Assembly (NCBI GenBank): GCA_028284265.1 | Contig: JANQRZ010000006.1 | Span: 207,610-271,609, forward strand | DNA length: 64,000 nt | DNA from: Rhodothermales bacterium | GTDB taxonomy: Bacteria; Bacteroidota; Rhodothermia; Rhodothermales; JANQRZ01 | Direction: 5' to 3' | Notes under the pieces: model-generated | What the model was told of the DNA's origin: nothing | What the model saw: only the letters and a program-made list of their open reading frames with translations | Databases searched by the model: none | In this document: piece after piece, positions 20,823 to 62,202 of the stretch | Layout: the number at the start of each line of letters is the position of its first letter | Numbering within the stretch: the stretch's first letter is position 1 | Position numbers and translations under genes: made by a program

Positions 20823-20838
20823 CGCAAGCCATATGCCG
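20823..20838 (-). promoter_or_regulatory. sigma54-type -24/-12 promoter (copy 5)
   Basis: Minus strand reads CGGCATATGGCTTGCG, with the GG-N10-GC spacing of TGGCAC-N5-TTGC. Lies 23 nt upstream of the ATG at 20800. Confidence 0.65.
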
Positions 20839-20891
20839 CCGCTGCCGTGCGCTCAAAACGGTGCGTCCGGGCACATTGAGCTATCGCCAAG

Positions 20892-20928
20892 TGTGCGTTT
20901 GCGCCCACCCGATGTGCGCAGGCGCGCA
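20892..20928 (-). promoter_or_regulatory. tandem palindromic upstream sites (putative enhancer/UAS, copy 5)
   Basis: Site A is tgtgcgtttgcgccca (20892..20907) and site B is tgtgcgcaggcgcgca (20913..20928). Their centres are 21 bp apart. The site A centre is 63 bp from the -24 GG. Confidence 0.55.
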
Positions 20929-20948
20929 GCCGACTTCGCCTCAAACCG

Positions 20949-21851
20949 TCAGGGCAGGTTCACCAAGCGGTCCAGATCGATCTGGTAGATGTCTGAGTTG
21001 TTGCCCGCGAGGTGGGCATAGAAGAGGTACCGACCATCGGGGGAGAACGCAGGCGTCCACTCGTAGTCTGCCGTGTTGATTGTGTCTCCCAGATTGGCGA
21101 CGGATGACCACGCCCCGTCCTCATTGTAGACCACGAACAGGTCGCCTCGTCCCTGCCCCCCTTCGCGCTCCGAGTAGAAGATGATGAAGCGCTCCTCCGG
21201 GTCCACGATGGCCTCGCCATCGGTGGCCTCACTGTTGAAGGGCACTATCACTGGTTCGGCATAGTGTCCCTCCACCAACGCCGCCCGGTGGATATCGACG
21301 CCGCCCGGTCCCCCGGCTCGGTTGGAGTGGAAGTAGAGGTCGCCCTTCGCCGTCGTGTGGGGATGGCTGTCGATGCCGTCGCCGTTGAGGGGTGCGGGTA
21401 GGTGCTGGGGCGTGCCCCAGCCGTCGTCCGTTCGCTCGACAAACCAGAGGTCGTTGTGCGAGCGTTCGCCTGTGTCATCGACAGGCCGCTTCGAGGCGAA
21501 GTAGAGCCGGTCGCCGTCGAACGACGGATACTCGTCGCTGTACTGACCGGAGAACGGAAGCACCGTCGGTTCTTGCCACGCGCCCTCTGCGAAGTGGGAG
21601 ACGTAGAGGGCAGGTGTGTCTCGCCACGATGCGCGCCGGGTGAAATAGAACGTCCGTCCGTCCGGCGAGAACGTCGGGCCGTACTCGATGGCGTCTGTGC
21701 TGATGACGCCGGGTGCGAAGAGCAGCGGCTCCTCCAACGTTTCGGCGGTCTGGTACGGATGAGGCTGTGCTACGGCGTTGCAGCACACCAAAAACGCGAC
21801 GAGCGTGGCAATCCCAAGAGGCTGCGAAATCGCACGGTGGAAGGCGGGCAT
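20949..21851 (-). CDS. TolB-like/PD40 beta-propeller repeat secreted protein
   Basis: Signal peptide plus repeated F(S/T)PDG(R)..(Y)F motifs (TFSPDGRTFYF, PSFDGDRLYFAS, AFSPDGRYLFYA). Confidence 0.7.
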   Translation of the reverse strand: MPAFHRAISQPLGIATLVAFLVCCNAVAQPHPYQTAETLEEPLLFAPGVISTDAIEYGPTFSPDGRTFYFTRRASWRDTPALYVSHFAEGAWQEPTVLPFSGQYSDEYPSFDGDRLYFASKRPVDDTGERSHNDLWFVERTDDGWGTPQHLPAPLNGDGIDSHPHTTAKGDLYFHSNRAGGPGGVDIHRAALVEGHYAEPVIVPFNSEATDGEAIVDPEERFIIFYSEREGGQGRGDLFVVYNEDGAWSSVANLGDTINTADYEWTPAFSPDGRYLFYAHLAGNNSDIYQIDLDRLVNLP

Positions 21852-21880
21852 AGGGATAGATGTTTGAAAGCAAAGATGGG

Positions 21881-22354
21881 CTAGTCGTCCAGCGTCTCGG
21901 AGAGCTGGATGGTGTTTCCGTCAGGATCACGGATTTGGATCAGGCGCAGGTCGTGGGCCGGGAAGTCGATGGCTCTGGGCCGCTCCCCGGTGGCGGCCTC
22001 TACACGGTCGGCGATGACGTCCACATCGGGCACCCAGAACCCGACCTTGTAGAAGCCGAGATCCCGGTCTACGTTCGGGGCCTCAGCACGCCAGATCAAC
22101 TCGACGAACAGGTGCTCGCTCGTCAGGTTGATGATGCGCGCTGTGCTGTCGTCGGCGGTCCAGCGGTCGTGCTCCGCCAAGCCGAACGCCTGGCTGTACC
22201 AGTCAGCCGACTTGTCTATGTTCTCCACGAGCACAGCGAAGAACTGACGTGCACTGATCTCGGACACCCACGGCTCGGCCTGCTGCGCACTCGCTGCCGT
22301 GCTAGCGAACAGCACCAGTAGCAAGCAGTGGAGTACTCGGAGTGATGTAGCCAT
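21881..22354 (-). CDS. VOC/glyoxalase-family protein with signal peptide
   Basis: 157 aa, N-terminal MATSLRVLHCLLLVLFASTAASAQ. Glyoxalase-like beta-alpha-beta pattern, with C-terminal IQIRDPDGNTIQL typical of VOC proteins. Confidence 0.6.
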   Translation of the reverse strand: MATSLRVLHCLLLVLFASTAASAQQAEPWVSEISARQFFAVLVENIDKSADWYSQAFGLAEHDRWTADDSTARIINLTSEHLFVELIWRAEAPNVDRDLGFYKVGFWVPDVDVIADRVEAATGERPRAIDFPAHDLRLIQIRDPDGNTIQLSETLDD

Positions 22355-22359
22355 GCCGG

Positions 22360-24732
22360 TTATTCGTAGCGAAGGGCCTTGACGGGGTCGACCGTCGCGG
22401 CCCGGAAGGCGTGGTAGCTCACCGTCAGCAGCGCGATGGCAAGGACCGTGAGTCCGGCGAGGGCAAACACGCCGGGGCCGAGCGCTGTCCGGTAGGCGAA
22501 CCCGTCAAGCCATCGCTCCGCTGCCATCCACGCCAGCGGACAGGCCACTGCGAACGCGATGAGAACGGGCTTGGCGAAGTCCTTGCTCAGGAGCACCACC
22601 ACGCTCGCCGCCGACGCGCCGAGCACTTTCCGCACGCCGACCTCTTTCGTCCGTTGAACGGCTAGGAACGAGGCCAGCCCGAACAGACCGAGGCAGGCGA
22701 TAAGGAGCGCCACCAGCGCGCCGATACCGACGATCTTGCCCCACCGCTCCTCCGCCTGATAGAGTCGGTCGAGATCGCTGTCGAGGAAGGAGTAGGTGAA
22801 AGGCTGGGCCGTCGAGAGGGTGCGCCACGTTGTCTCCAGCTTGGCGAGTGTTGCTGGAAGATCGTCCGTGCGGAGGCGGAGCGCGATGCCCTGCGAGTCG
22901 TTGAAGTTGGGGAAGAGGAGATAGGGGGCAATCGGCTCGCGCAGCGACGTGTAGTGGAAGTCCTTGACCACGCCGACGATCTCGCGCTCCTGCCCCCAGA
23001 TGGTGGCCTGCTTGCCGATGGCCTCCTCGGGCGAGGTCCAGCCGATCTCGCGTACCGCCGTCTCATTGAGCAGCACGGCCCGGTCGGCGCTCGCGTCCCG
23101 GCTTTGCGAGAAGTTGCGACCGGCGGCGAGTTCCATCCCCATCGTGCCGACGTAGGCGTCGTCCACCCAGCCCATGAACATGCGAAATGGGTCGCCCGTC
23201 ATGCCTTCGGGCCGGAAGTCCGTCGTGGCGGGCATCTGGGTGCCGGGGAGCGAGGTCGTCGCGGTGACGCTCGTGACTTCGGGCAGTGCGGCGAAGGTGG
23301 CCTTGACCGTGCCCGGCTGCTGCGCCACGGTCGAGTCGCGCACGGGGACGATCACGACCTGTTCCTCATCGAAGCCGAGTTTCTCACTCTGGATGAAGTC
23401 AAGCTGTTGATAGACCACGCCCGCCCCGACGACGAGGACGACCGCCGCGATGTACTGCGCTACCACGAGGGCCTGCCGCAGCGGCGAGCGCGTCCCCGTG
23501 CTCGCGCCCTTCAACGCCATACGCGGAGCCGAGGCCGAGAGTACGAGTGCCGGATAGCCACCCGCCGCGAGGCCGGTCAGGAGCGCGATGCCGAGCGCCA
23601 CACCGAGCACGAGGCCGCTGCCGTAGTCGAGGGCAAGCTCGCCGCCGAGGAGGGTGCCAAAGGCGGGCAGCAACAATTCGATCAAACCCAGCGCTACGAC
23701 GAGGGCGAGGCCCGCCATTACGAGCGATTCCGTGAGCACCTGCACCGCAAGTTGATTGCGCTGGGCACCGACCGCCTTGCGGACGCCGATCTCCTTCGCC
23801 CGTCGGGCAAATTGAGCGGTGGTGAGGTTCGTGTAGTTGATGCACGCCAACAGCAGGATGATCGCGGCGAGGGCGGCGAGGAGCCAGACGTACCGGATGT
23901 CGCTGTTGGCCTCTAGCTCGCCCCGGTAGTCGGAATAGAGGTGGATGTCGGTGAGCGGCTGGAGCCGGTAGACGGTTACGCTCTCCTCGCCGAGTGTTCG
24001 GTCCACGAAGTCGGGAAGCTTGGCGTCAAGCGCCGCCGGATCCACGCTTTCCGCGAGCGTGAGGTAGGTTGGAAAAGCACCGAGGCCCCAGTTGTCGAGC
24101 ACGTTGTCCCAGCCCATCACGTCGTCCAGTGCCTCGACCGAGCCGAGCATCGAGAAGCTGAAGTGCGAGGTGCGCGGCGGGTCGGCGAGGACGGCGGTCA
24201 CGGTCATCGCGTGCTCGGCGTTCAGCATGAGCGTCTGGCCGAGCGGGTCATCTTCGCCGAAGTAGGTCTGCGCCGCCGACTCGGTCAGGACGAGCGAGAA
24301 CGGCGCGGCGAGCGCCTCCTCCGGCGTCCCGCGCAAGAACTCGAAGCCGAAGACTTGGAAGAACTGCGCGTCGGTGAAGAGCAAGTCCTCCTCATAGAAC
24401 CCCGTGTCGTCCCGACTCACGAGGGGCGTGAACCAGTAGCGGAACAGCCGCGTCGCGTGCTCGATCTCGGGATAGTCGGCCAGCAGCGCAGGAGCAAGCG
24501 GGGCCTCCGGCGTCACGTCCTCAGCCAGCGCGTTGTCCTGCTGCACGATCCGGTAGGTCCGTTCGGCGTTCGGGTGGAAGCGGTCGTAGCTCACCTCGTC
24601 GCGGAGGAACAGCAGCAGCAGCAGGCAGCACGCGATGCCGAGTCCGAGTCCGTAGATGTTGATGAACCCGTAGAGCTTCTGCTTACGCAGCGTGCGGAGG
24701 GTGGCCTTGAGGTAATTGGTCCACATAAACAC
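22360..24732 (-). CDS. duplicated FtsX/MacB-type ABC permease (paralogue 2)
   Basis: 790 aa with the same architecture (INYTNLTTAQFARRAKEIGVRKAVGA; GLFGLASFLAVQRTKEVGVRKVLGAS; C-terminus VDPVKALRYE). Lies 6 nt downstream of paralogue 3. Confidence 0.9.
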   Translation of the reverse strand: MFMWTNYLKATLRTLRKQKLYGFINIYGLGLGIACCLLLLLFLRDEVSYDRFHPNAERTYRIVQQDNALAEDVTPEAPLAPALLADYPEIEHATRLFRYWFTPLVSRDDTGFYEEDLLFTDAQFFQVFGFEFLRGTPEEALAAPFSLVLTESAAQTYFGEDDPLGQTLMLNAEHAMTVTAVLADPPRTSHFSFSMLGSVEALDDVMGWDNVLDNWGLGAFPTYLTLAESVDPAALDAKLPDFVDRTLGEESVTVYRLQPLTDIHLYSDYRGELEANSDIRYVWLLAALAAIILLLACINYTNLTTAQFARRAKEIGVRKAVGAQRNQLAVQVLTESLVMAGLALVVALGLIELLLPAFGTLLGGELALDYGSGLVLGVALGIALLTGLAAGGYPALVLSASAPRMALKGASTGTRSPLRQALVVAQYIAAVVLVVGAGVVYQQLDFIQSEKLGFDEEQVVIVPVRDSTVAQQPGTVKATFAALPEVTSVTATTSLPGTQMPATTDFRPEGMTGDPFRMFMGWVDDAYVGTMGMELAAGRNFSQSRDASADRAVLLNETAVREIGWTSPEEAIGKQATIWGQEREIVGVVKDFHYTSLREPIAPYLLFPNFNDSQGIALRLRTDDLPATLAKLETTWRTLSTAQPFTYSFLDSDLDRLYQAEERWGKIVGIGALVALLIACLGLFGLASFLAVQRTKEVGVRKVLGASAASVVVLLSKDFAKPVLIAFAVACPLAWMAAERWLDGFAYRTALGPGVFALAGLTVLAIALLTVSYHAFRAATVDPVKALRYE

Positions 24733-24738
24733 TTAGGG

Positions 24739-27174
24739 TTATTCGTGGTGTAAAGCCTTGATCGGGTCGGCGGTCGCAGCGCGGAGGGCCTGCGTGCTGA
24801 CCGTCACAAGCGCGATCACGAGAAGCAGAATGCCTGCGAGGAGGAAGGGCGTCGGACCCAGGGCGATCTGATAGGCGAACCCGTCGAGCCACGGGCGCAG
24901 CACCAGAATCGAGACCGGAACCGCCAGCGCGATGGCGACGATGACCAGCTTGATGAAGTCCCGCGAGAGCAGCAGAACGATCCCCGACACGGTGGCTCCG
25001 AGCACCTTGCGGACGCCGATTTCCTTGGTGCGCTGCGCCGCCATGTGGGCCGTCAGCCCGAAGAGGCCGAAGCAGGCGAGCAGCACCGCCAGCCCGGCAA
25101 AGAGCGTAATCAGACGACCCGTCCGCCGCTCGGCCTCGTAGAGTTGGGCAAAGGTGTCGTCGAGGAAGGTGTAGAGGAACGGGTGCTGCGGGGCGAACCG
25201 GGACCACGTAGCCTCGACCGCGGCGAGTGTGCCGGGTAGGTCCGCCTGGTCCACCCGCGCGATGGCGAGTAGGTTGGGCCGGTTGGTATTGCGTGGATCC
25301 GGGCCGAGGAGCGCCATCGGGCCGATCTCCCGGTGCAGCGAGGCGACGTGGAAGTCCCGGACCACGCCGACGACCGTGTAGACCGACTCGCCGGGCCATT
25401 CGATCTGGGCACCGATGGGATCGGTGAGCCCGAATTGCTGCACCGCCATTTCGTTCAGGAGGACGGCGAGCGAGTCGGAGGGGACGCTGCGGGATAGGCT
25501 TCGGCCTGCCACCACCTCCAGCCCCAGCGTCTCGACAAAGTCGAAGCTCGCGTAGGTGTACTCGATAGGCAGGCCTGTGTCGTCCGGCGCTCCGGCGATG
25601 CGCATGACCGCCCCGTCCACATGGCGACCGGGGACCTGCGCCGCGTTCGTGACACTCACCACACCCGGCAGTGCTCGGAGTGCGGTGCGGAACGCCTCGC
25701 CCTGCGGCCCCATCACCTCCGCGCCTTCGAGTACGACCACCTGCTCGGCCTCAAAGCCTAGCTGCTTCTCCAGCATGAATTGCGTCTGGCCGTACACGAC
25801 GACCGTACACACGATCAGCGCCATCGCAATCCCGAACTGGAACACCACGAGGCCGTCCCGAAGCCACGACCGCCGCCCCTTCGCTCGGTGGCTCTTGAGC
25901 ACCGCCATCGGGCGGAAGGCTGAAAGATAGAAGGCGGGATACGCCCCGGCTCCGATCCCGACGAGCACGCCCAGCCCGAGCAGTAGCGGAGCATAGCCTG
26001 TGATATCGCCCGGTGCAAAGCGCAGCGCGGCTCCGGTCGCCGTGCTCAACAGCGGCCCCACGATCTGGACGATGCCCACCGCCAGCGCGAGCGCGCCGAG
26101 GCTCATCAGCATCGACTCCGTCAGAAACTGGGCGACGAGTTGGGAGCGCCGCGAGCCGAGTGTCTTGCGGACGCCCACCTCCTGCGCCCGCCGGGCGGCC
26201 CGTGCGGTCGCTAGGTTGATGAAGTTGACGCACGCCAGCAGCAGCACAAGCACGGCGATGGCCGCGAACAGATAGACCACCCGCACATCGCCCGTCGGGG
26301 TTGGCTCGTCTTCGAGGGTCGAGCGCAGGTGGATGTCGGTGATCGGCTGGACGAAATAGCGATAACCGTTGCCCGCCTCTTCGAACGCCTCCAGCGTGGT
26401 CCCGAACGACTCGGAAATCTGAGGGCCACCGTAGGTGGCAAAGAGGACCGGGAGCTTGGCTTCGAGCGCCGCCGGATCGGTGCCGGGGCGCACGCGGACA
26501 TACGTGTAGACCCCGAACCCGAGCCAGCTCTCGGAGCGACTCTGGCGCTGGGTCGTGTACGACGCGAGCAGGTCAAAGTCGAGGTGCGTGTGCGTCGGGA
26601 GGTTCGCCATCACGCCCGTCACCGTGTACTCGAACACGTCGCGGTCGGACGGCTCGCGCACGGCGAGTGTCTGCCCGATGGGGTTGGTCTCGCCGAAGTA
26701 GCGCCGGACCGTGGACTCGGTCAGCACGACCGTGAACGGAGCACGGAGCGCCGTTTGCGGATCGCCCTGAAGCAGGGGCATCCCGAACACCTCGAAGAAC
26801 GTCGAGTCGGCGAAGAAGAAGCGATCTTCCGGGAAGGCTTGGTCGCCGGAGCGCACCGTCATCTGGCCCGACGGGTCGTACCAGAGCCGCGTCGCGTGCT
26901 CGACTTCGGGAAAGTCGGTCGCTAGGGTCGGGCCGAGGGGCCGGGCACTGTAGGCCGTCTGCATCTCTAGCTCCTGCATACGGAAGTCCAGTACCACGCG
27001 GTAGATGTTCTCCGCCCCATCGTAGGATTGGTCGTAGCTCAGCTCGCCGCGCACGTAGAGCGCGATGGCGACGCAGCACGCCATCCCGATAGCTAGGCCG
27101 AAGAGGTTGAGGAAGGTGTAGCCCCTGTGCTTCCGCAGGCTGCGAAGCGTGATGGTGAGATAGTTCTTCAGCAT
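24739..27174 (-). CDS. duplicated FtsX/MacB-type ABC permease (paralogue 3)
   Basis: 811 aa. N-terminus MLKNYLTITLRSLRKHRGYTFLNLFGLAIGMACC, two FtsX modules, C-terminus ADPIKALHHE. Confidence 0.9.
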   Translation of the reverse strand: MLKNYLTITLRSLRKHRGYTFLNLFGLAIGMACCVAIALYVRGELSYDQSYDGAENIYRVVLDFRMQELEMQTAYSARPLGPTLATDFPEVEHATRLWYDPSGQMTVRSGDQAFPEDRFFFADSTFFEVFGMPLLQGDPQTALRAPFTVVLTESTVRRYFGETNPIGQTLAVREPSDRDVFEYTVTGVMANLPTHTHLDFDLLASYTTQRQSRSESWLGFGVYTYVRVRPGTDPAALEAKLPVLFATYGGPQISESFGTTLEAFEEAGNGYRYFVQPITDIHLRSTLEDEPTPTGDVRVVYLFAAIAVLVLLLACVNFINLATARAARRAQEVGVRKTLGSRRSQLVAQFLTESMLMSLGALALAVGIVQIVGPLLSTATGAALRFAPGDITGYAPLLLGLGVLVGIGAGAYPAFYLSAFRPMAVLKSHRAKGRRSWLRDGLVVFQFGIAMALIVCTVVVYGQTQFMLEKQLGFEAEQVVVLEGAEVMGPQGEAFRTALRALPGVVSVTNAAQVPGRHVDGAVMRIAGAPDDTGLPIEYTYASFDFVETLGLEVVAGRSLSRSVPSDSLAVLLNEMAVQQFGLTDPIGAQIEWPGESVYTVVGVVRDFHVASLHREIGPMALLGPDPRNTNRPNLLAIARVDQADLPGTLAAVEATWSRFAPQHPFLYTFLDDTFAQLYEAERRTGRLITLFAGLAVLLACFGLFGLTAHMAAQRTKEIGVRKVLGATVSGIVLLLSRDFIKLVIVAIALAVPVSILVLRPWLDGFAYQIALGPTPFLLAGILLLVIALVTVSTQALRAATADPIKALHHE

Positions 27175-27183
27175 GGCAGGATG

Positions 27184-29607: not shown

Positions 29608-29623
29608 CGCAAGCGATATGCCA
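29608..29623 (-). promoter_or_regulatory. sigma54-type -24/-12 promoter (copy 4)
   Basis: Minus strand reads TGGCATATCGCTTGCG. Lies 34 nt upstream of the ATG at 29574. Confidence 0.7.
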
Positions 29624-29676: not shown

Positions 29677-29713
29677 TGCGCGCTGCCGCACACTCGGTGG
29701 GCGCTAGCGCGCA
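29677..29713 (-). promoter_or_regulatory. tandem palindromic upstream sites (copy 4)
   Basis: Site A is tgcgcgctgccgcaca (29677..29692) and site B is tgggcgctagcgcgca (29698..29713). Centres are 21 bp apart. Site A is 63 bp from the -24 GG. The module ends 9 nt from the stop of the preceding permease gene. Confidence 0.55.
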
Positions 29714-32101: not shown

Positions 32102-32108
32102 GGGGTTC

Positions 32109-34538: not shown

Positions 34539-34540
34539 GG

Positions 34541-36941: not shown

Positions 36942-36957
36942 CGCAAGCCATATGCCA
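36942..36957 (-). promoter_or_regulatory. sigma54-type -24/-12 promoter (copy 1)
   Basis: Minus strand reads TGGCATATGGCTTGCG. Lies 32 nt upstream of the ATG at 36910. Confidence 0.7.
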
Positions 36958-37021: not shown

Positions 37022-37058
37022 TGTGCGCCAGCGCACAGCCTGTGTGCGCCTACGCGCA
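37022..37058 (-). promoter_or_regulatory. tandem palindromic upstream sites (copy 1)
   Basis: Site A tgtgcgccagcgcaca (37022..37037) is a perfect 7+7 palindrome. Site B is tgtgcgcctacgcgca (37043..37058). Centres are 21 bp apart. Site A is 74 bp from the -24 GG. The module ends 1 nt from the LysR stop codon. Confidence 0.6.
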
Positions 37059-54843: not shown

Positions 54844-54859
54844 CGCAAGCGATATGCCG
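54844..54859 (-). promoter_or_regulatory. sigma54-type -24/-12 promoter (copy 2)
   Basis: Minus strand reads CGGCATATCGCTTGCG. Lies 31 nt upstream of the ATG at 54813. Confidence 0.7.
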
Positions 54860-54924: not shown

Positions 54925-54961
54925 TGTGCGCTGGCGCACACCGGTTGTGCGTTAGCGCGCA
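54925..54961 (-). promoter_or_regulatory. tandem palindromic upstream sites (copy 2)
   Basis: Site A tgtgcgctggcgcaca (54925..54940) is a perfect palindrome. Site B is tgtgcgttagcgcgca (54946..54961). Centres are 21 bp apart. Site A is 75 bp from the -24 GG. The module ends 7 nt from the preceding stop codon. Confidence 0.6.
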
Positions 54962-54968
54962 GCCTCGC

Positions 54969-57338
54969 CTACTCGTTGCGAAGCGATTGGACTGGGTCAG
55001 CCGAGGCCGCGCGGTAGGCCTGCACGCCGACGGTCAGCGCAGCGAGCAGGAGCGCGACAGCCCCCGCGAGGATGAATGGCCATGCCCCGAGGTCGGCGCG
55101 GAAGGTGAAGTCGGAGAGCCAATGCTCGGCCCCGAAGTAGGCGAGGGGTAGGGCGACGACGCACGCCACGAGCACGAGCGCTACGAACTCCAGCGAGAGC
55201 AAGCCGACGAGGTTCGCGACCGTCGCACCGAGCACCTTGCGGACACCAACTTCCTTGCGCCGCCGCTCGGCCGCATAGGCGGCGAGGCCGAACAGCCCGA
55301 GGCACGCGATGAACGCCGCCACCGCCGCGAAGACGCTAGCGAGGGTCCCGATGCGCTGCTCGCTCTTGTACATCTCACCGTAGGTGTAGTCGAGGAACTC
55401 GTAGTCGAACGGGACGCCGGGGCTGAACCTGGCGAAGCTCTCTCGGAGCGCAGCGAGGGCCTCTTCCGTCTGGCCCGGCGCGGTCCGCACCGTGAGCAGC
55501 CAGAGATTGCTCAGGTCTTGGTCCAACAGCAGGATCGTCGGCTCGATGGGATCATAGAGCGAGGCCATGTGGAAATCCTTCACGACGCCGACGATCTGAC
55601 CATCACGCCCCCACATCGACAGGCCCTCGCCGATGGGCGTCTCCATTCCCATCACGCGCGCCGCTGCCTCGTTGACGACGAAGTTGGCCGAGTCTGCGCT
55701 GAAATCAGGAGAGAACGCGCGGCCCGCCGCCATCTCCATCCGCATCGTCTCGGGAAAGTCATAGTGGGTCTGGATGACGTGGAAGAGCGGCTTGCTCTCG
55801 GGGTCCTTGCCGTCCCACTCGGGGTCCGTCGTGGAAGAGCCGATGCTGAAGGGTGTGTTGTTGACCACTGACACGTTGAGGATGCTGGGCTGCGCGAGAA
55901 GCTCGCGGCGGAAGGCGTCGTACTGCCCGTGTGCCCCGCCTTCGAGCCGCATCGAAACCACATTCTCTCGGTCGAGGCCTAGGTTCTTGGTCTGGATGAA
56001 GTGGATCTGCTGGTATACGACGAACGTGCCCACGATCAGCAGGATCGACGCGGCGAACTGGAAGACGACGAGGCCTTTGCGGAGGAGCGCGCTGCCATGC
56101 GGGACATCGCCACCGCGCAGCACGCCCGCCGGGTCGAAGCCCGAGAGCACGAGCGCCGGATAGCTTCCTGCCAGCAGGCCCGCCCCGACGGACAGAGCGA
56201 GAAACAGCCCCCACATCCCGGCGCCGACCGAGCCGAGCGTGATCTCTTTGCCTGCTACCTCGCTGAAGAGCGGGAGTAGCACGACCACCACCGTCATGGC
56301 GAGGGCGAACGCGCCGAGCGCCGTCAGCACGGCCTCGCTCAGAAACTGCCCGACAAGCTTCCCGCGCGACGCGCCGAGTGTCTTTCGCACCCCGATCTCT
56401 CGCGCCCGCTGCGCCGACCGGGCGGTCGCGAGGTTCGTGAAGTTGATGCACGCGATCAGGAACAGGAAGAGCGCGACCACGCCGAAAATGCGGACGTACT
56501 CGATCCGTCCGCCCGCTTGCTGCCCGTCCTCGAACTGATTGTAGAGGTGCTGGTCGCCGAAGGGCTGGAGGAAGAGTGTGTTGCCCTCGCCGAACTCGAA
56601 GTTGTCCACGATCAGGTTCTCGATCTTGGCATCCACTGCCTCAGGATCCGCCCCCGGCGTGAGGCGAATGGTGAGCAGCATCGAGCTGTTGCCCCAGTGG
56701 TCGAGCCATGTGTTGCGCTCGTAGTGGTCCCGGCTCGGAAGCACCCAGTCGAACTGAAGCGAGGAATAGCTCGGTACCTCAGCCGCGATGGCTGTAACCT
56801 GAAAGTCGCGCCGGTCGTCCACGCGGACGGTCTCGCCGACCACGTCTTCGAACGGGCGGTCCGGGAAGAAGACGCCCGTGAGCCGCTCGGAGAGCACGAT
56901 ACCGTCAGGCTGGTCGAGGGCCGTCGCTGGATCGCCGACGACGAGTGGGAACGAGAAGATCTCGAAGAACGCGCTGTCGGCCCAGAGACCCTCCTCGCGG
57001 AGCGATACGGCCTCGTGCGAGAGCACCGCCTCCTGCGGCCACGTCATCCGCTCGGCATGCTCCACCTCGGGGAACTCGGCTTCGAGTACGTCCGCGACGG
57101 GTTTGGTGATGGCTGCCCCCGTGAGGATGGGTGCCTCGGAAAAGGCCATGTGCCGCTTGACTGCGTAGAGACGGTCCCCGTCAGCGTGGAAGCGGTCCTG
57201 CCGCATTTCGTCTTGCATCCAGAGCAGGATGAAGAAGGCACACGCCAGTCCGACGGCGAGGCCGAGGACGTTGAGCGCCGTATACCCTTTCTGGCGGCGG
57301 AAGAAACGGAGGGCGGTCGTGAGATAGCTCGTCAACAT
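54969..57338 (-). CDS. duplicated FtsX/MacB-type ABC permease (paralogue 9)
   Basis: 789 aa. N-terminus MLTSYLTTALRFFRRQKGYTALNVLGLAVGLACA, two FtsX modules, C-terminus ADPVQSLRNE. Confidence 0.9.
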   Translation of the reverse strand: MLTSYLTTALRFFRRQKGYTALNVLGLAVGLACAFFILLWMQDEMRQDRFHADGDRLYAVKRHMAFSEAPILTGAAITKPVADVLEAEFPEVEHAERMTWPQEAVLSHEAVSLREEGLWADSAFFEIFSFPLVVGDPATALDQPDGIVLSERLTGVFFPDRPFEDVVGETVRVDDRRDFQVTAIAAEVPSYSSLQFDWVLPSRDHYERNTWLDHWGNSSMLLTIRLTPGADPEAVDAKIENLIVDNFEFGEGNTLFLQPFGDQHLYNQFEDGQQAGGRIEYVRIFGVVALFLFLIACINFTNLATARSAQRAREIGVRKTLGASRGKLVGQFLSEAVLTALGAFALAMTVVVVLLPLFSEVAGKEITLGSVGAGMWGLFLALSVGAGLLAGSYPALVLSGFDPAGVLRGGDVPHGSALLRKGLVVFQFAASILLIVGTFVVYQQIHFIQTKNLGLDRENVVSMRLEGGAHGQYDAFRRELLAQPSILNVSVVNNTPFSIGSSTTDPEWDGKDPESKPLFHVIQTHYDFPETMRMEMAAGRAFSPDFSADSANFVVNEAAARVMGMETPIGEGLSMWGRDGQIVGVVKDFHMASLYDPIEPTILLLDQDLSNLWLLTVRTAPGQTEEALAALRESFARFSPGVPFDYEFLDYTYGEMYKSEQRIGTLASVFAAVAAFIACLGLFGLAAYAAERRRKEVGVRKVLGATVANLVGLLSLEFVALVLVACVVALPLAYFGAEHWLSDFTFRADLGAWPFILAGAVALLLAALTVGVQAYRAASADPVQSLRNE

Positions 57339-57347
57339 AGCAGGAGA

Positions 57348-59762
57348 TTATTCGGAGCGGAGGGCATGGACGGGGTCAGCGGTCGCGGCGCGCAGGGTCT
57401 GCGTGCTGACTGTGACGAGCGCAACGGTGAGGGCGACGACGCCTGCTATCAGAAACGGTGTTAGCCCGAGGTCGATGCGGTAGGCGAAGGTGCTTAGCCA
57501 TCGCTCGGCGGCGAGGTAGGCCACCGGCGCAGCAATCACGACGGCGACGAGGACGGGTCGGGCGAAGTCCCACGCGAGCAGGCCGACGATCTGGCGGACA
57601 CTCGCCCCAAGAACTTTGCGCACACCGATCTCTTTGCGTCGCTGCTGTGCCGCAAACGCGCTCAAACCGAGCAACCCGAGGCACGCGATCAGAATGGCGA
57701 GCGCCGTGAAGTACCCGAAGGCCTGCGCCATCTGAGCCTCCTGCCGGTACAGGGTCTCAAACTCCGAATCGAGAAACGAGGGCGAGAACGGCGTACCGCT
57801 GGAGAACTGGTTCCACGCTTGCTCCAGATCGGCCAGCCCGACTTCGAGCGTGCCGGGGCGGACACGGGCGAGCAAGTAGTCGTAGGGGAAGTCCGGGTCT
57901 TCCGGTAGTCGGATTACCAGCGGAAGGATCGGGTTGCGGAACGATTCGAGGTGGAAATCCTTCACGATGCCGACCACATCGTTTCGTTCGATCACAGCCT
58001 CGCTGGAGGGGCCAGGATTCAGAGAGACCTCGTCGAAGGCTGCCTCGTCCACGTTCGCAAACCCGGCCATCCGTGCCGCTGTCTCATTGATAAGAAACGC
58101 TGCCGAGTCAGTAGGCAGAGTGGGGTCGAAGCCGCGTCCCTCGGCGATCTCCATGCCGAGGGTAGGCAGGAGGTTGAAGTCTGAGAGGTACAACTGAACG
58201 TGAATGGCTTCCTCGCTCGACCGACCGGCAGGCACGTACACGTTGTCTGAGGAGCCTCTGCCCGCTGGATACTGATCGGTGAGCGTAGCGTGCGCGATGT
58301 TGGAGCTTTGGAGGACGGCTGCTTTGAACGATCGCTGTTGAGCACGGATGCCAGCGTCGGGGCGGAGCGGTAGGACAACGACTTGCTCCCGGTCGAATCC
58401 GAGTTTCTCTTGATGCGCGTACCGTAATTGCTCTTGCAACACGAGCGCACCCGTCACGAGGATCACCGACAGCGCGAACTGTGTGATGACCAACCCACGC
58501 CGCAAGGCCAGTCCGGAGCTACTTCGACTGAATCGCCCGCGTAGCACGCGCGACGGATCGTAGCCCGAGAGCACGTAGGCCGGATATGCCCCGGCTAGGA
58601 GTGTCACGAGGGGTGTCACCAGCCCAAGCGCACCGAGCGCACTGAGCGTGTCAGCCAGACCAATCTCAAGTCCCGTCAGGTTGTTGAACACGGGCAGAAG
58701 CAGGCCACCCAGTATGATGGCGATGAGCAGCGCGAGGCCGCTCAGAAGCGCCGTCTCAGCGAGGAACTGTCCGATGAGTTGCCTTCGCTCTGCACCCAGC
58801 GCCTTGCGCACCCCGACCTCCCGCGCCCGGTCCAGCGCCCGCGCTGTCGCGAGGTTGATGAAGTTGATGCTGGCGATCAGCAGTACAACGAGCGCAACGA
58901 TGCCGAAGACGATGACGTAGAGGATATCCCCGTTTACCCCCAGCTCGCCTGTGAGTCGCGAGTGCAGGTGGATGTTCGTGACAGGCTGAAGCTGGATCGC
59001 CATTGACGCCCCGAACTGCTCCAGCGCATCGCCCGCATCGGTCTCAGCCCGTGCGGCGAGGCGGTGCTCGACGGCTTCCGGCTGTGCCTCGGGGCGAAGC
59101 CGGAGGTAGGTGGCATAGCTAATGTTGGAGAGCCAAGCCTGCGCCCCAGTACGCTCCTCGCTCTCGTAGAGATTTCGCCTCCCGAGTACGTCGTACTGAA
59201 GGTGTGACGCCTCAGGCACATCGAGCACGACGCCCACGACCTCCGCCTCGGTCTCGCGCTCGCCCAACCGGACGATCTGCCCCACGGCCTCGCCGTCACC
59301 GAAGTAGCGCTGGGCGGTGCTTTCCGTCAGCACGACTTGGTCGGGTGCCGTGAGTGTACCGCCCGCCACGAACTCGACGCCGAACACATCGAAGAAGGTA
59401 TCGTCGGTGTAGAAGAACCGCTCGCCAATGAAAACCTCTTCACCAATATGAATAACAGGGTCCGCCTCATTGAGCCGCGTTACATGCTCTACGTCCGGGT
59501 CACTCTCGCCCAGCACAGTCGAGACAATCGGACTGGCCCGGGCGAAGTGGGTTAGCTCGTCTGGCATGCCGACCTCCGTCGTCACCCGATAGATGCGGTC
59601 GGCTTTGGGATAGTGGCGGTCGTAGGCCGTTTCGTGCTGGACATAGAGCGTGATGAGGAATGCGCACGCCAGACCTACTGCGAGTCCGATGACGTTGATG
59701 GCGGTATAGCCCTTCTGGCGATAGAAGGCGCGGAGGGCGGTCTTGAAATAGCTCGACAGCAT
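57348..59762 (-). CDS. duplicated FtsX/MacB-type ABC permease (paralogue 10)
   Basis: 804 aa. N-terminus MLSSYFKTALRAFYRQKGYTAINVIGLAVGLACA, two FtsX modules, C-terminus ADPVHALRSE. Confidence 0.9.
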   Translation of the reverse strand: MLSSYFKTALRAFYRQKGYTAINVIGLAVGLACAFLITLYVQHETAYDRHYPKADRIYRVTTEVGMPDELTHFARASPIVSTVLGESDPDVEHVTRLNEADPVIHIGEEVFIGERFFYTDDTFFDVFGVEFVAGGTLTAPDQVVLTESTAQRYFGDGEAVGQIVRLGERETEAEVVGVVLDVPEASHLQYDVLGRRNLYESEERTGAQAWLSNISYATYLRLRPEAQPEAVEHRLAARAETDAGDALEQFGASMAIQLQPVTNIHLHSRLTGELGVNGDILYVIVFGIVALVVLLIASINFINLATARALDRAREVGVRKALGAERRQLIGQFLAETALLSGLALLIAIILGGLLLPVFNNLTGLEIGLADTLSALGALGLVTPLVTLLAGAYPAYVLSGYDPSRVLRGRFSRSSSGLALRRGLVITQFALSVILVTGALVLQEQLRYAHQEKLGFDREQVVVLPLRPDAGIRAQQRSFKAAVLQSSNIAHATLTDQYPAGRGSSDNVYVPAGRSSEEAIHVQLYLSDFNLLPTLGMEIAEGRGFDPTLPTDSAAFLINETAARMAGFANVDEAAFDEVSLNPGPSSEAVIERNDVVGIVKDFHLESFRNPILPLVIRLPEDPDFPYDYLLARVRPGTLEVGLADLEQAWNQFSSGTPFSPSFLDSEFETLYRQEAQMAQAFGYFTALAILIACLGLLGLSAFAAQQRRKEIGVRKVLGASVRQIVGLLAWDFARPVLVAVVIAAPVAYLAAERWLSTFAYRIDLGLTPFLIAGVVALTVALVTVSTQTLRAATADPVHALRSE

Positions 59763-59771
59763 GGCGGTGTT

Positions 59772-62153
59772 TTATTCGTAGCGAAGCGACTTAACGGGGT
59801 CAGCGGTGGCAGCGCGGAGGGCTTGCGAACTGACCGTCACGAGCGCGATCACGAGGGCGATGGCTCCGGCGAGGACGAAGACGCCCGGTCCGAGTCCGAT
59901 CCGGTACGCGAAGCTCTCTAGCCAGCGCCCCATCCCGAGCCACGCCAGCGGCACCGCGATCACGAACCCCACCAATACGAGGCGGGCAAACTCTTTGGCA
60001 AGGAGGGTCACGATCTGCCCGGTACTCGCGCCGAGGACTTTCCGCACGCCGATCTCCTTGCGTCGCCGCTCGGCGGCGTAGGCTGCGAGGCCGAACAGCC
60101 CGAGGCACGCGATGAAGATGGCAACGCCCGCGAAAAATCCGAACAGCTTGCCGAGCCGCGCCTCGGCCCGGTAGAGCCGGTCGAAGTCTTCGTCGAGGAA
60201 GCGGTAGTCGAAGGCGTAGCCCGGCGCGAAGGTCTCCCATGTGGTGCGAACGTGCTCCAGCGTCGCCGGGAGGTCGGCAGGAGCCACGCGCATCGCAGCA
60301 TAGCCGAACCACGGGATGTAGTTGAGCACGAGCGGCTGGACCTCTTGGTGCAGCGACTGGAAGTGGAAGTCCTCAACCACGCCGATGATCTGGCCCATCG
60401 GTCGGTCCCACGCCCGGAACGGTGCGCCGATGGCCTCCTCCGGCGTCAGGCCGAGCACCGCCAGCGCGGTCTCGTTGAGGATGTACGTGTCGAGGGTGTC
60501 CGTGGCAATCTCGTCCGAAAACCCTCGTCCGGCGACAAGGTCGATCCCGAACACGTCGAGGTAGCCGGGACCGGCAGGGGCGGTGGCGAAGCTCTCGCCG
60601 CGCTCGTCCTCGCCCGCTTGGCCAGGCCAGTTGTAGCCCCGGCTCGTCCCGACGCGGCCCGGAAGGCCTCCCGCTTTTGCAAGGTGCAGGATGCTGGGGT
60701 CAGACTGAAGCTCCTGCGCGAACGGCTCGAAGCTCTCCCAGATCGGCGTCGGCGGACGGACGAAGAGGACTTGCTCTTTCTCGAAGCCGAGGTCGCGGCT
60801 CTGCATGAACCGGAGTTGGTCGTAAATCGTCAGCGTGGCGACGAGGAGGAACGCCGAGATCGCAAACTGGAAGACGATCAGGCCCTTCCGCAGCCAGAGT
60901 GCGCCGCCGCGCTGGTCGGTTTCACCCTTGAGCACCCTCGCTGGGCGGAACGCCGAGAGGTAGAGCGCCGGATAGCTCCCCGCCACCAGCCCCGCACCCA
61001 GCCCGATCCCGACGAGCAGCAGCACGGTCCAGACCTGCCCCAAGTCGAAGCTCGCGGTGGCCCCGATGGCTTCATTGAAGAACGGCAGCGCGAGGAGCGC
61101 TAGGCCGATGCCCACGGCAATCGCCAGCCCACTCAGCAGCACCGACTCGCCGAGGAACTGCCCCATGAGTTGCCTCCGGTAGGCTCCGACGGCTTTGCGG
61201 ACGCCGACCTCGCGGGCGCGCTGCGAGGCCCGCGCTGTGGCGAGGTTCATAAAGTTGACGCACGCGATCAGCAGGATCAGCAGGCCGATGGCCCCGAACG
61301 TCCAGAGGTACGTCGTGTCGCGGTGGCGGCCCGAGTCGAAGGTCAGCGATGTGTTGAAGTAGATGTCCGAGAGCGGCTGAAGCGCGAGCGTATACGCCAT
61401 AGCAGCCTCGCTCTCCGGATCGTCGAAGCCCTCCTGCCGCGCCAGGATTGACATCTTCTCGGTGAGGGCCTCGCGGTCCGTACCAGGATGCAGCAGGAGG
61501 TAGGTATTGAAGTTGTAGTTCGTGAAGTTGGTCAGCGCACCCTCGCCCATGATGGCCTCGATCAGCAGGAAGGAGCTGACAGCGCTGAAGGTGAACTGTG
61601 CGTTCGCGGGTACGTCCGCCATCACGCCGGTCACCGTCAGCGTGTGCTCATCATACTGGAGTGTTTGCCCGACTGGGTTGACATCGCCGAAGAATGCCTC
61701 AGCGATGCTCTCGGTGAGGACGAGGTCGTACTTCCCGTCGAGCACCGTCGCGGGGTCGCCTTGGAGGAGGTCGAACGAGAACGTCTGGAAGAAGCCCGAG
61801 TCGGCGAGGGCGAGGCCGTCGAGCTTGCGGACCGTCCCGTCGGGCAAGCGGAGGAACGGACTGCGGTGGTTCTCCAAGCGGACTGCCTGCTCGACCTCGG
61901 GGAAGGCCTCCTTGATCATCGGGGCGAAGCCTGCCGCCGAGTTCGCGTAGTGCCCGTCCGCATTCATGTAGGTGAGCCGGACGATTCGGTCGCCGCGCTC
62001 GTGGAAGCGGTCGAAGCTGCGCTCGTGCTGGATGAAAAGCACGATCAGGAAGCAGCACGCCAGCCCGAGGCCGAGGCCGCCGACGTTGATGAGCGAAAAG
62101 CCGGGTCGCTTGCGGAGCGTGCGGAGGGCGACCTTGAGGTAGTTGGCGAACAT
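59772..62153 (-). CDS. duplicated FtsX/MacB-type ABC permease (paralogue 11)
   Basis: Start trimmed to MFANYLKVALRTLRKRPGFSLINVGGLGLGLACC (ATG at 62153). C-terminus ADPVKSLRYE. Confidence 0.9.
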   Translation of the reverse strand: MFANYLKVALRTLRKRPGFSLINVGGLGLGLACCFLIVLFIQHERSFDRFHERGDRIVRLTYMNADGHYANSAAGFAPMIKEAFPEVEQAVRLENHRSPFLRLPDGTVRKLDGLALADSGFFQTFSFDLLQGDPATVLDGKYDLVLTESIAEAFFGDVNPVGQTLQYDEHTLTVTGVMADVPANAQFTFSAVSSFLLIEAIMGEGALTNFTNYNFNTYLLLHPGTDREALTEKMSILARQEGFDDPESEAAMAYTLALQPLSDIYFNTSLTFDSGRHRDTTYLWTFGAIGLLILLIACVNFMNLATARASQRAREVGVRKAVGAYRRQLMGQFLGESVLLSGLAIAVGIGLALLALPFFNEAIGATASFDLGQVWTVLLLVGIGLGAGLVAGSYPALYLSAFRPARVLKGETDQRGGALWLRKGLIVFQFAISAFLLVATLTIYDQLRFMQSRDLGFEKEQVLFVRPPTPIWESFEPFAQELQSDPSILHLAKAGGLPGRVGTSRGYNWPGQAGEDERGESFATAPAGPGYLDVFGIDLVAGRGFSDEIATDTLDTYILNETALAVLGLTPEEAIGAPFRAWDRPMGQIIGVVEDFHFQSLHQEVQPLVLNYIPWFGYAAMRVAPADLPATLEHVRTTWETFAPGYAFDYRFLDEDFDRLYRAEARLGKLFGFFAGVAIFIACLGLFGLAAYAAERRRKEIGVRKVLGASTGQIVTLLAKEFARLVLVGFVIAVPLAWLGMGRWLESFAYRIGLGPGVFVLAGAIALVIALVTVSSQALRAATADPVKSLRYE

Positions 62154-62186
62154 GGCGGATAGGCAGGACAGTGATGCCTGTCCGAT

Positions 62187-62202
62187 CACAAGCCATATGC
62201 CA
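62187..62202 (-). promoter_or_regulatory. sigma54-type -24/-12 promoter (copy 3, GT instead of GC at -12)
   Basis: Minus strand reads TGGCATATGGCTTGTG. Lies 34 nt upstream of the ATG at 62153. Confidence 0.6.

What the first reader, a model, noticed from the sequence alone, without database searches (positions are those of the whole stretch)
20823..62202. Five near-identical sigma54 (-24/-12) promoter 16-mers head the permease operons
The minus strand upstream of the first gene of each operon was read directly, giving five 16-mers:
- TGGCATATGGCTTGCG (36957..36942)
- CGGCATATCGCTTGCG (54859..54844)
- TGGCATATGGCTTGTG (62202..62187)
- TGGCATATCGCTTGCG (29623..29608)
- CGGCATATGGCTTGCG (20838..20823)

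All keep the invariant GG and (in four of five) GC dinucleotides with the exact GG-N10-GC spacing of the RpoN consensus TGGCAC-N5-TTGC. Each lies 31-34 nt (23 nt for the 20800 start) upstream of an ATG that begins a canonical protein N-terminus.

I did not see this motif by eye before any housekeeping gene in the window. I am not aware of sigma54 control of large MacB/FtsX-type permease families being an established regulon. If real, about 40 kb of this window is one enhancer-dependent regulon.
Basis: partly seen in the sequence, partly recalled or inferred. Interest (0 to 1): 0.85.

Follow-up and report, generated by a model that had tools for sequence, protein, structure and literature searches.

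The report
Sigma-54 promoters driving efflux permease operons

Summary
Five matches to YGGCATATSGCTTGYG lie at the stated minus-strand coordinates (0.01 expected by chance) and nowhere else in the window.

Each 16-mer is preceded by two 16-bp palindromes, TGTGCGC-N2-GCGCACA, spaced 21 bp apart. These ten palindromes are the only such sites in the window. The proximal one is centred 63 or 74-75 bp upstream of the -24 GG.

The downstream permeases are only 37-46% identical to each other, so the motifs are kept by selection, not recent duplication.

A metagenome scan using only the palindrome pair, plus orthologous Rhodothermales loci, recovered 19 more sites. In those the proximal palindrome starts about 58, 69 or 80 bp upstream, steps of one helical turn.

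In three relatives the same composite site lies between a divergent histidine kinase/NtrC-family response regulator pair (GAFTGA present) and a membrane-fusion protein–ABC ATPase–permease operon. An ortholog with a near-identical DNA-binding helix sits on a contig the same length as the window's.

I conclude these are enhancer-dependent sigma-54 promoters of one two-component regulon covering about 35 kb. Sigma-54 control of FtsX-type permeases was predicted computationally in 2025 (PMC12316311). This is a new, well-resolved member of a known kind. No rpoN gene or mapped transcription start was available.

The parts
62187..62202 (-). Sigma-54 -24/-12 promoter TGGCATATGGCTTGTG (the -12 element is GT). 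Predicted transcription start near 62176.
62267..62303 (-). Upstream activator sequence (UAS) pair: palindromes at 62288-62303 (distal) and 62267-62282 (proximal, perfect TGTGCGCCAGCGCACA), 21 bp apart.
54969..62153 (-). Operon A: three fused double FtsX/MacB_PCD permeases (59772-62153, 57348-59762, 54969-57338), with gaps of 9-10 nt between them.
54844..54859 (-). Sigma-54 promoter CGGCATATCGCTTGCG. Predicted transcription start near 54833.
   Evidence: the orthologous site in L162 is aligned
54925..54961 (-). UAS pair (54946-54961 distal, 54925-54940 proximal). It begins 8 nt after the stop codon of the upstream permease.
52426..54813 (-). Operon B, first gene: permease (795 aa). The S41 peptidase (50336 to about 52153) and the MocR regulator (48807-50330) follow after a gap of about 270 nt. 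The same gene order occurs in L162, but whether they are co-transcribed is uncertain.
36942..36957 (-). Sigma-54 promoter TGGCATATGGCTTGCG. Predicted transcription start near 36931.
37022..37058 (-). UAS pair (37043-37058 distal, 37022-37037 proximal). It begins 2 nt after the stop codon of a LysR-family gene.
29723..36910 (-). Operon C: three permeases (34541-36910; 32109-34538, with the true start ATG at 34538; 29723-32101).
29608..29623 (-). Sigma-54 promoter TGGCATATCGCTTGCG. Predicted transcription start near 29597.
29677..29713 (-). UAS pair (29698-29713 distal, 29677-29692 proximal). The proximal palindrome is one helical turn closer to the promoter than in operons A-C.
20949..29574 (-). 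Operon D: three permeases (27184-29574, 24739-27174, 22360-24732), a glyoxalase/bleomycin-resistance-fold protein (21881-22354) and a PD40-repeat protein (20949-21851).
20823..20838 (-). Sigma-54 promoter CGGCATATGGCTTGCG. Predicted transcription start near 20812.
20892..20928 (-). UAS pair (20913-20928 distal, 20892-20907 proximal).
13204..20800 (-). Operon E. Its genes, in order:
- beta-lactamase-fold protein (19358-20800; the likelier start is ATG 20776, followed by a signal-peptide-like sequence)
- unknown 606-aa protein (17531-19351)
- small conserved 90-aa ORF (17228-17500)
- permease (14774-17206)
- DUF4097 protein (13942-14733)
- MacB/DarD-type ABC ATPase (13204-13896)

Best explanation
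The five 16-mers are sigma-54 (RpoN) -24/-12 promoters. Each is served by a pair of 16-bp palindromic upstream activator sequences (consensus TGTGCGC-N2-GCGCACA). The two palindromes lie 21 bp apart, about two helical turns, so they share one face of the DNA.

**Shown from sequence.**
- The motifs, their spacing and their restriction to these five sites.
- Their conservation across diverged paralogs and across genomes.
- The helical phasing of the palindromes relative to the promoter.
- The linkage to an enhancer-binding protein gene in related genomes.

**Inferred mechanism.**
1. An NtrC-family response regulator (receiver domain, AAA+ domain with GAFTGA, Fis-type helix-turn-helix) is phosphorylated by its partner histidine kinase.
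2. It binds as dimers to the two palindromes, oligomerises, loops the DNA to the closed sigma-54 holoenzyme complex, and uses ATP to open the promoter.
3. Transcription starts about 10 nt after each 16-mer and gives short leaders without a Shine-Dalgarno sequence, as is usual in Bacteroidota.

**What is controlled.** The five operons cover about 35 kb. They encode eleven fused double-FtsX MacB-type (ADOP-like) permeases and one MacB-type ABC ATPase. They also encode envelope or detoxification-type proteins: a beta-lactamase fold, a glyoxalase/bleomycin-resistance fold, a PD40 protein, DUF4097 and possibly an S41 peptidase.

**Likely role (inferred).** This is an inducible export or defence regulon that responds to an envelope or xenobiotic signal. 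The signal itself is unknown.
For: 1. **Motif statistics.** There are 5 of 5 exact degenerate 16-mers against 0.01 expected. The palindrome TGNGCG-N4-CGCNCA occurs exactly 10 times against 0.29 expected, always as a pair upstream of a 16-mer.
2. **Footprint among paralogs.** In the five upstream regions only three blocks are conserved: the two palindromes and the 16-mer. The downstream permeases are just 37-46% identical to each other.
3. **Independent recovery.** A metagenome scan using only the double palindrome returned L129, L137, L138, L140, L145, L148 and L149. In each a GG-N10-G element follows 52-64 nt later. In most, a permease N-terminus of the MLKNYL type comes next.
4. **Orthologous loci.** L162, L163, L165, L166 and L167 carry the same composite sites. 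The site in L162 that is orthologous to 54859 keeps both palindromes and the 16-mer while its flanks have diverged.
5. **Phasing.** Over 24 sites the proximal palindrome starts at -58/-59, -68/-69 or -79 to -81 relative to the 16-mer. The resultant vector length is 0.91-0.94 at a period of 10.5-11 bp.
6. **Linked activator.** In L165, L166 and L167 the UAS and promoter lie in the divergent region between a response regulator gene (Response_reg, Sigma54_activat, HTH_8) and a membrane-fusion protein–ABC ATPase–permease operon. A histidine-kinase-type gene lies beside the regulator in L165 and L167.
7. **Ortholog in the source genome.** P0134 is 71% identical to the L165 regulator P0121. It has GAFTGA and a near-identical C-terminal helix-turn-helix (one substitution in the 39 residues compared). 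It lies on a contig of 457,999 bp, the same length as the window's own contig.
8. **Shared contigs.** Contig lengths shared between the permease hits and the regulator hits are 17936, 32740, 48663, 19440, 6543, 3669751 and 457999.
9. **No alternative promoter.** No sigma-70-type consensus promoter lies in these intergenic regions. No Rfam family matches anywhere in the window.
10. **Published support.** GAFTGA enhancer-binding proteins correlate with the presence of rpoN across genomes (PMC12316311).
Against: - No rpoN gene could be examined. It is not in the window or in any held locus, and the rest of the contig could not be fetched.
- There are no transcription start or expression data.
- The canonical -12 C is weakly kept: C in 12, T in 8 and A in 4 of 24 sites. 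This is looser than the classical GC dinucleotide.
- The link between the regulator and the palindromes rests on gene neighbourhood, not on binding data.
- The 24 sites are not all independent, because some are orthologs of one another.
Confidence: 0.85

Rival explanations
1. The palindromes are operators for a conventional repressor or activator (for example a LysR, PadR or MocR-type protein). The 16-mer would then be part of a housekeeping-sigma or ECF-sigma promoter that only happens to resemble a -24/-12 element.
For: - A LysR gene ends 2 nt before one UAS pair (37063-37962).
- ADOP-like permeases in L164 are linked to PadR.
- The -12 C is variable.
Against: - Only one of the five sites has a LysR gene as neighbour.
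- The PadR-linked locus L164 lacks both motifs.
- There is no sigma-70-type consensus in these regions.
- GG, the N10 spacing and TTG are invariant across all 24 sites.
- Activator sites 60-100 bp upstream, phased in 11-bp steps, suit DNA looping and do not suit an operator overlapping a promoter.
- Three loci place the sites next to a sigma-54 activator gene.
Confidence: 0.07
2. The conserved blocks are a repeated intergenic element, such as a REP- or MITE-like element or a recombination site, or are left over from segmental duplication of the operons. They would have no role in transcription.
For: The element recurs at the heads of paralogous gene arrays that clearly arose by duplication.
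Against: - The paralogs are only 37-46% identical, so neutral intergenic sequence would be randomised by now. Between the three blocks it is.
- Orientation and distance to the start codon are fixed.
- The element is conserved in other genomes even where the operon structure differs.
- It has no terminal inverted repeats or target-site features. Its three blocks sit at variable but phased distances.
Confidence: 0.03
3. The 16-mer acts at the RNA level, as a leader, translational or stability element in a transcript that starts further upstream. The palindromes would then be transcription terminators or attenuators of the preceding operon.
For: - Some leaders can form hairpins just downstream of the 16-mer (z = -2.4 to -4.1 at 62202, 36957 and 29623).
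- The palindromes lie directly after upstream stop codons.
Against: - No Rfam family matches.
- The hairpins are not general: mean z is -0.9 over 20 sites.
- The palindromes lack a T-tract, and none is called as a terminator.
- In L165-L167 the element lies in divergent intergenic regions with no upstream co-directional gene.
Confidence: 0.03

Closest known systems
Classical NtrC-type sigma-54 promoters with tandem upstream activator sites (for example glnAp2 with NtrC, zraP with ZraSR, nifH with NifA)
   Same: - The -24 GG and -12 TTGC elements have the fixed spacing.
- Two dyad-symmetric activator sites lie about 80-125 bp upstream of the start, on one face of the helix.
- The activator is a receiver / AAA+ (GAFTGA) / Fis-type helix-turn-helix response regulator paired with a histidine kinase.
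- The 16-bp palindrome has the form TGT-N10-ACA, which I recall as the form of the NifA UAS.
- The closest solved structures are Aquifex NtrC-family proteins (4l4u, 1ny5) and ZraR (1ojl).
   Different: - The target genes are MacB-type permease arrays, not nitrogen, zinc or nif genes.
- The regulator is below the cut-off of every NCBIfam equivalog. Its best hit is the PEP-CTERM-box regulator at 407 bits against a cut-off of 502.6.
- The -12 C is relaxed to C, T or A.
- The host is Rhodothermales/Bacteroidota.
Computationally predicted sigma-54 control of COG0577 FtsX-like ABC permeases (PMC12316311, PLoS One 2025)
   Same: It links sigma-54 promoters with FtsX/MacB-type 'antimicrobial peptide' ABC permeases, and reports this within Bacteroidota.
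   Different: - That work is a PSSM enrichment at the level of classes (Bacteroidia, Opitutia, gamma-proteobacteria).
- In the passages I read it defines no activator sites, no cognate enhancer-binding protein and no operon maps, and it does not mention Rhodothermales.
- Here the UAS, its phasing, the linked two-component system and the multi-operon layout are all resolved.
MacAB-TolC and DarBCD-type tripartite ABC exporters
   Same: - The permeases have the MacB periplasmic core domain plus the FtsX domain.
- The ATPase is closest to DarD and the MacB nucleotide-binding domain.
- In relatives a membrane-fusion adaptor closest to DarC heads the core operon.
   Different: - Each permease is a fused double unit of about 800 aa with a separate ATPase.
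- Eleven complete paralogs plus one truncated at the window edge lie in 64 kb, against one ATPase in the window.
- All scores are far below the equivalog cut-offs.
- E. coli and Salmonella macAB are not sigma-54 dependent (from my own knowledge).
ADOP family (TIGR03434, 'acidobacterial duplicated orphan permease')
   Same: - The duplicated FtsX/MacB_PCD architecture aligns end to end with the ADOP model.
- Both form large paralogous families, mostly without an adjacent ATPase.
- Many copies are also reported in Dyadobacter (PMC11573002).
   Different: - The scores of 293-344 bits are below the 622.3-bit cut-off.
- ADOP genes are typically PadR-linked. That is seen here in L164, which lacks the sigma-54 motif.
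Bce-type modules of Firmicutes (BceRS-BceAB)
   Same: - A two-component system controls an FtsX-type ABC transporter.
- The kinase next to the regulator in L167 has two N-terminal hydrophobic helices with almost no external loop, like intramembrane-sensing kinases (judged by eye).
   Different: - The Bce regulator is OmpR-type and acts with the housekeeping sigma factor, whereas this one is NtrC-type and acts with sigma-54.
- The host here has two membranes and the system includes a membrane-fusion protein.
- There is no evidence here that the transporter takes part in sensing.

Membership tests
Sigma-54 (RpoN)-dependent promoter | A -24 GG and a -12 GC with exact GG-N10-GC spacing, within the consensus TGGCAC-N5-TTGC | tested here: met
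   Four of the five window sites fit exactly and one has GT. Across 24 related sites, GG, the spacing and TTG are invariant. The -12 position is C in 12, T in 8 and A in 4.
Sigma-54 (RpoN)-dependent promoter | Intergenic, oriented towards the downstream gene and close to its start | tested here: met
   All five sites lie 22-33 nt upstream of the ATG on the coding strand.
Sigma-54 (RpoN)-dependent promoter | Enhancer-like activator binding sites upstream, able to act by DNA looping | tested here: met
   Paired palindromes sit at all five sites and nowhere else in the window. Their distances are phased at steps of about 11 bp.
Sigma-54 (RpoN)-dependent promoter | An rpoN gene present in the genome | not testable with these tools
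   - rpoN is not in the window or in any held locus.
- The rest of the 458-kb contig could not be fetched.
- Its presence is inferred only from the GAFTGA enhancer-binding protein and from the published correlation between such proteins and rpoN.
Sigma-54 (RpoN)-dependent promoter | Transcription starts about 12 nt downstream of the -12 element and depends on rpoN and an enhancer-binding protein | not testable with these tools
   This needs 5' end mapping and mutants.
NtrC-family bacterial enhancer-binding protein (candidate activator P0134 / P0121) | Receiver domain, sigma-54 interaction AAA+ domain with the GAFTGA loop, and a Fis-type helix-turn-helix | tested here: met
   Pfam finds Response_reg, Sigma54_activat (8.7e-67), AAA_lid_14 and HTH_8. 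GAFTGA is present in both sequences.
NtrC-family bacterial enhancer-binding protein (candidate activator P0134 / P0121) | Encoded in the same genome as the window and binds the palindromes | tested here: inconclusive
- In L165, L166 and L167 the UAS lies next to the regulator gene.
- There are no binding data.
ADOP family duplicated permease (TIGR03434) | Score at or above the curated cut-off of 622.3 bits | tested here: not met
   The scores are 343.7, 311.2 and 293.2 bits. The proteins are ADOP-like in architecture but are not members by NCBIfam's criterion.
MacB-type ABC transporter permease (Pfam FtsX + MacB_PCD) | A MacB periplasmic core domain followed by an FtsX four-helix domain | tested here: met
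   PF12704 and PF02687 score above their gathering thresholds, and the FtsX domain matches twice per protein.
Tripartite MacAB-like pump | A membrane-fusion adaptor and an ABC ATPase encoded together with the permease | tested here: inconclusive
   The window holds an ATPase (13204-13896) but no adaptor. The adaptor and ATPase head the core operon in L165, L166 and L167.

The most novel reading that the evidence does not exclude
Rhodothermales may carry a dedicated sigma-54 two-component circuit that commands dozens of diverged double-FtsX permeases from one UAS/promoter cassette. The cassette would be copied, and moved by whole helical turns, throughout the genome.

The kinase has almost no external domain, which suggests it senses within the membrane or through the transporter, as Bce-type kinases do.

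The many permeases would share a few ATPases and adaptors, giving a combinatorial, inducible export or defence arsenal. Hydrolases (beta-lactamase fold, S41 peptidase, glyoxalase fold) would be co-induced as a second line of defence.
Probability: 0.2. Interest if true: 0.6.

Novelty: new member of a known kind. Interest (0 to 1): 0.4.

Why it matters
- **A concrete model for an orphan family.** Large families of orphan double-FtsX (ADOP-like) permeases are among the most expanded and least understood gene families in soil and marine Bacteroidota and Acidobacteriota. This locus offers a testable regulatory model: one activator binding site, one sigma factor and one two-component system.
- **A route to the signal and substrates.** Identifying what activates the kinase would indicate what the permeases export or defend against.
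- **A handle for regulon prediction.** The composite palindrome-plus-promoter motif is specific enough to predict the whole regulon in any Rhodothermales genome.
- **Promoter evolution.** It is a clean natural example of enhancer phasing, with three spacing classes one helical turn apart, and of promoter gain and loss within operon arrays.
- **Limits.** It is not a new mechanism, and the general link was already predicted computationally.

Tried and rejected
1. **Genome-collection scan.** I scanned genome contigs with the 15-mer GGCATATSGCTTGCG. It was too short for 596 Gb.
2. **Rest of the contig.** Look-ups for P0001 and P0134 found no record. The citrate synthase gene led only to a 20-kb Logan contig.
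3. **rpoN.** An RpoN-box search of all held loci in six frames found nothing.
4. **L134.** This is a kinase plus an NtrC-type regulator followed by similar palindromes. I rejected it as a relative because its helix-turn-helix, its GAFTDA loop and its downstream genes all differ.
5. **L164.** This locus has a 60% identical permease but is PadR-linked and lacks both motifs.
6. **Leader hairpins.** They are significant at a few sites only, not in general.
7. **Other signals.** There are no sigma-70-type promoters or intrinsic terminators in the relevant gaps. The window has no Rfam families and no tRNAs.
8. **Literature.** I found nothing linking sigma-54 to these permeases in Francke 2011, nor in papers matching MacAB or Rhodothermus together with sigma-54.

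Full report
**1. Observation**

The degenerate 16-mer YGGCATATSGCTTGYG occurs exactly five times in the 64-kb window. Allowing up to three mismatches to TGGCATATGGCTTGCG adds no further site.

Four sites have GG-N10-GC, and the site at 62202 has GG-N10-GT. Each lies in intergenic DNA 22-33 nt upstream of an ATG that opens a long reading frame.

A loose generic consensus (TGGCAY-N5-TTGCW, up to 2 mismatches) is not enriched in the window: 31 found against 29 expected. The signal is therefore these five sites, not a general excess of such motifs.

**2.

Aligning the five upstream regions shows three conserved blocks separated by unconserved sequence: the 16-mer and two upstream palindromes. The palindrome pattern TGNGCG-N4-CGCNCA (consensus TGTGCGC-N2-GCGCACA) occurs exactly ten times in the window against 0.29 expected. 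It always occurs as a pair, 21 bp centre to centre, upstream of one of the five 16-mers.

The proximal palindrome is centred 74-75 bp (three sites) or 63 bp (two sites) upstream of the -24 GG. The two classes differ by one helical turn. Two dyad sites on one face of the helix, at a phased distance from a -24/-12 element, are the classical layout of an enhancer-dependent sigma-54 promoter (established knowledge of NtrC-type activation).

**3. Genes**

- **Permeases.** Eleven complete permeases of about 800 aa, plus one truncated at the window edge, all on the minus strand, carry MacB_PCD and FtsX domains. They align end to end with the ADOP model TIGR03434 but score 293-344 bits against a cut-off of 622.
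- **Operons A-D.** Four promoters directly precede a permease. Three of these operons hold three permeases each, separated by gaps of 3-10 nt. Operon D also holds a glyoxalase-fold protein and a PD40-repeat protein.
- **Operon E.** The fifth promoter (20838) precedes a beta-lactamase-fold protein. That gene is followed by an unknown 606-aa protein, a 90-aa ORF, a permease, a DUF4097 protein and a MacB/DarD-type ABC ATPase.
- **Extent.** The DNA downstream of the five promoters totals about 35 kb.
- **Regulators.** No sigma-54 activator gene lies in the window.

**4. Selection, not recent duplication**

The permease paralogs are only 37-46% identical at the protein level. Near-identity of a 16-mer and two palindromes, within otherwise diverged spacers, therefore means they are maintained by selection.

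**5. Relatives**

Named protein hits place the window in Rhodothermales/Bacteroidota, on a contig of 457,999 bp.

A metagenome scan with the palindrome pair alone, with no promoter in the pattern, gave 40 loci. In L129, L137, L138, L140, L145, L148 and L149 a GG-N10-G element follows 52-64 nt later. Most of these are followed by a permease N-terminus of the MLKNYL type.

Loci fetched through orthologous proteins carry the same composite sites:

| Locus | Permease identity to the window | Composite sites |
|---|---|---|
| L162 | 82% | 2 |
| L163 | 74% | 3 |
| L165 | 58% | 2 |
| L166 | fetched through the regulator | 3 |
| L167 | fetched through the regulator | 1 |

The L162 site orthologous to window 54859 keeps both palindromes and the 16-mer while its flanks have diverged.

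Over the 24 sites:
- GG, the spacing and TTG are invariant. The consensus is T-GGCA-Y-N5-TTG-(C/T/A).
- The proximal palindrome starts at -58/-59, -68/-69 or -79 to -81 relative to the 16-mer. The resultant vector length is 0.91-0.94 at a period of 10.5-11 bp.

**6. The activator**

In L165, L166 and L167 the UAS and promoter sit in the divergent region between two units. One is an NtrC-family response regulator gene (Response_reg, Sigma54_activat, HTH_8). A histidine-kinase-type gene lies beside it in L165 and L167; the L166 contig ends just past the regulator. The other unit is an operon encoding a membrane-fusion protein, an ABC ATPase and permeases.

The L165 regulator (P0121) has an ortholog, P0134, that is 71% identical. 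P0134 has GAFTGA and a near-identical C-terminal recognition region (...SKHGGNISRAAEALGLTRKSLYRRIEKYGL). It lies on a contig of 457,999 bp, the same length as the window's own contig.

Six further contig lengths are shared between the top permease hits and the top regulator hits.

The regulator matches no NCBIfam equivalog above its cut-off. It is closest to the solved NtrC-family proteins 4l4u and 1ny5 and to ZraR (1ojl).

The kinase in L167 has two N-terminal hydrophobic helices with only a six-residue or so loop between them (judged by eye).

**7. Rival explanations**

- **Conventional operator plus another sigma factor.** This is disfavoured. There is no sigma-70 consensus in these regions. 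The PadR-linked locus L164 lacks both motifs. The sites are placed far upstream and are phased.
- **Inert repeat or duplication remnant.** This is disfavoured by the divergence of the paralogs and by conservation across genomes.
- **RNA-level element.** This is disfavoured. No Rfam family matches. The hairpins are inconsistent. In L165-L167 the element lies in divergent intergenic regions.

**8. Comparison with what is known**

The mechanism is standard NtrC-type sigma-54 activation.

The link to FtsX-type permeases is not new in principle. A 2025 PSSM survey reports enrichment of sigma-54 promoters upstream of COG0577 in Bacteroidia, Opitutia and gamma-proteobacteria and calls it the first evidence for that link (PMC12316311). 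That paper relies on sequence analysis alone.

I found no experimental study, and no description of these activator sites or this two-component system.

New here are the UAS motif, its phasing classes, the candidate regulator and the multi-operon layout in Rhodothermales.

**9. Limits**

- No rpoN gene, transcription start or binding data were available.
- The -12 C is only half conserved.
- Assigning P0134 to the window's contig rests on contig length alone.
- The physiological signal is unknown.
- The export or defence role is inferred from gene content: MacB-type permeases, a DarD/MacB-like ATPase, a beta-lactamase fold, a glyoxalase/bleomycin-resistance fold and an S41 peptidase.

**Verdict**

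It is a new member of a known kind, of moderate interest.

Noticed in passing
window 17228-17500 (-): A small 90-aa ORF (MSQICVPIPPIDQ...) has no Pfam or NCBIfam match and lies just upstream of permease 14774-17206. The same gene is the first gene after the UAS and sigma-54 promoter in metagenome loci L129 and L137. It is therefore a conserved, unannotated regulon member.
   Followed up: partly
L164 (whole locus): A 60%-identical permease homolog lies in a locus with PadR-linked permease genes and has neither the palindromes nor the 16-mer. This permease family therefore seems to have at least two regulatory modes, PadR and sigma-54.
   Followed up: partly
L162 2544-16338 compared with window 54969-62202: The 82%-identical ortholog of window permease 59775-62153 is internal to a six-gene operon in L162 and has no promoter in front of it. 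The window has a full UAS and promoter there. Promoter cassettes are gained or lost within these arrays.
   Followed up: partly
L167 11725-13056 (+): The histidine kinase next to the candidate activator has two N-terminal hydrophobic helices separated by about six residues. It has almost no external sensing domain, which is reminiscent of intramembrane-sensing kinases that sense through a transporter. This is judged by eye from one sequence.
   Followed up: no
24 promoter sites (window, L129, L137, L138, L140, L145, L148, L149, L162, L163, L165-L167): The canonical -12 C is C in 12, T in 8 and A in 4 sites, while the preceding TTG is invariant. This is a looser -12 element than the textbook GC.
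   Followed up: partly
window leaders 62154-62186, 36911-36941, 29575-29607: The leaders lack a Shine-Dalgarno sequence and are pyrimidine-rich before the ATG. Three can form a hairpin at the predicted 5' end (z = -2.4 to -4.1), but this is not general across 20 related sites (mean z = -0.9).
   Followed up: partly
window 42021-46504 (-): A 1192-aa fusion of an ABC-2 type permease with an M1 aminopeptidase domain lies directly downstream of its own ABC ATPase (45596-46504). It is unrelated to the sigma-54 operons.
   Followed up: no
L134 9567-11300: An unrelated kinase plus an NtrC-type regulator (with a GAFTDA variant loop) is followed by a similar pair of palindromes and then AGGCACAGGATTTGCG 88 nt further on. 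It has a different helix-turn-helix and different downstream genes. It is probably a chance or convergent match.
   Followed up: partly
window 19358-20800 (-) and L162 14845-16338 (+): Beta-lactamase-fold genes sit in operons headed by this promoter type in both genomes, yet they are only 29% identical over the catalytic region. They look like separate recruitments of the same fold.
   Followed up: partly
L163 10001 and window 32109-34712: Some gene starts are probably set too far upstream. The called start of P0007 in L163 lies 1 nt after the promoter 16-mer, and a GTG 44 nt downstream is the likelier start. The longest window ORF, 32109-34712, has a 58-codon extension before the typical MLKHYL start at 34538.
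   Followed up: partly
window 6400-6415 (+): AGGCATCCGGGTTGCA is one mismatch from the generic sigma-54 consensus and lies between the succinate dehydrogenase and citrate synthase genes. It has no palindromes and no gene downstream on that strand, so it is probably chance.
   Followed up: no
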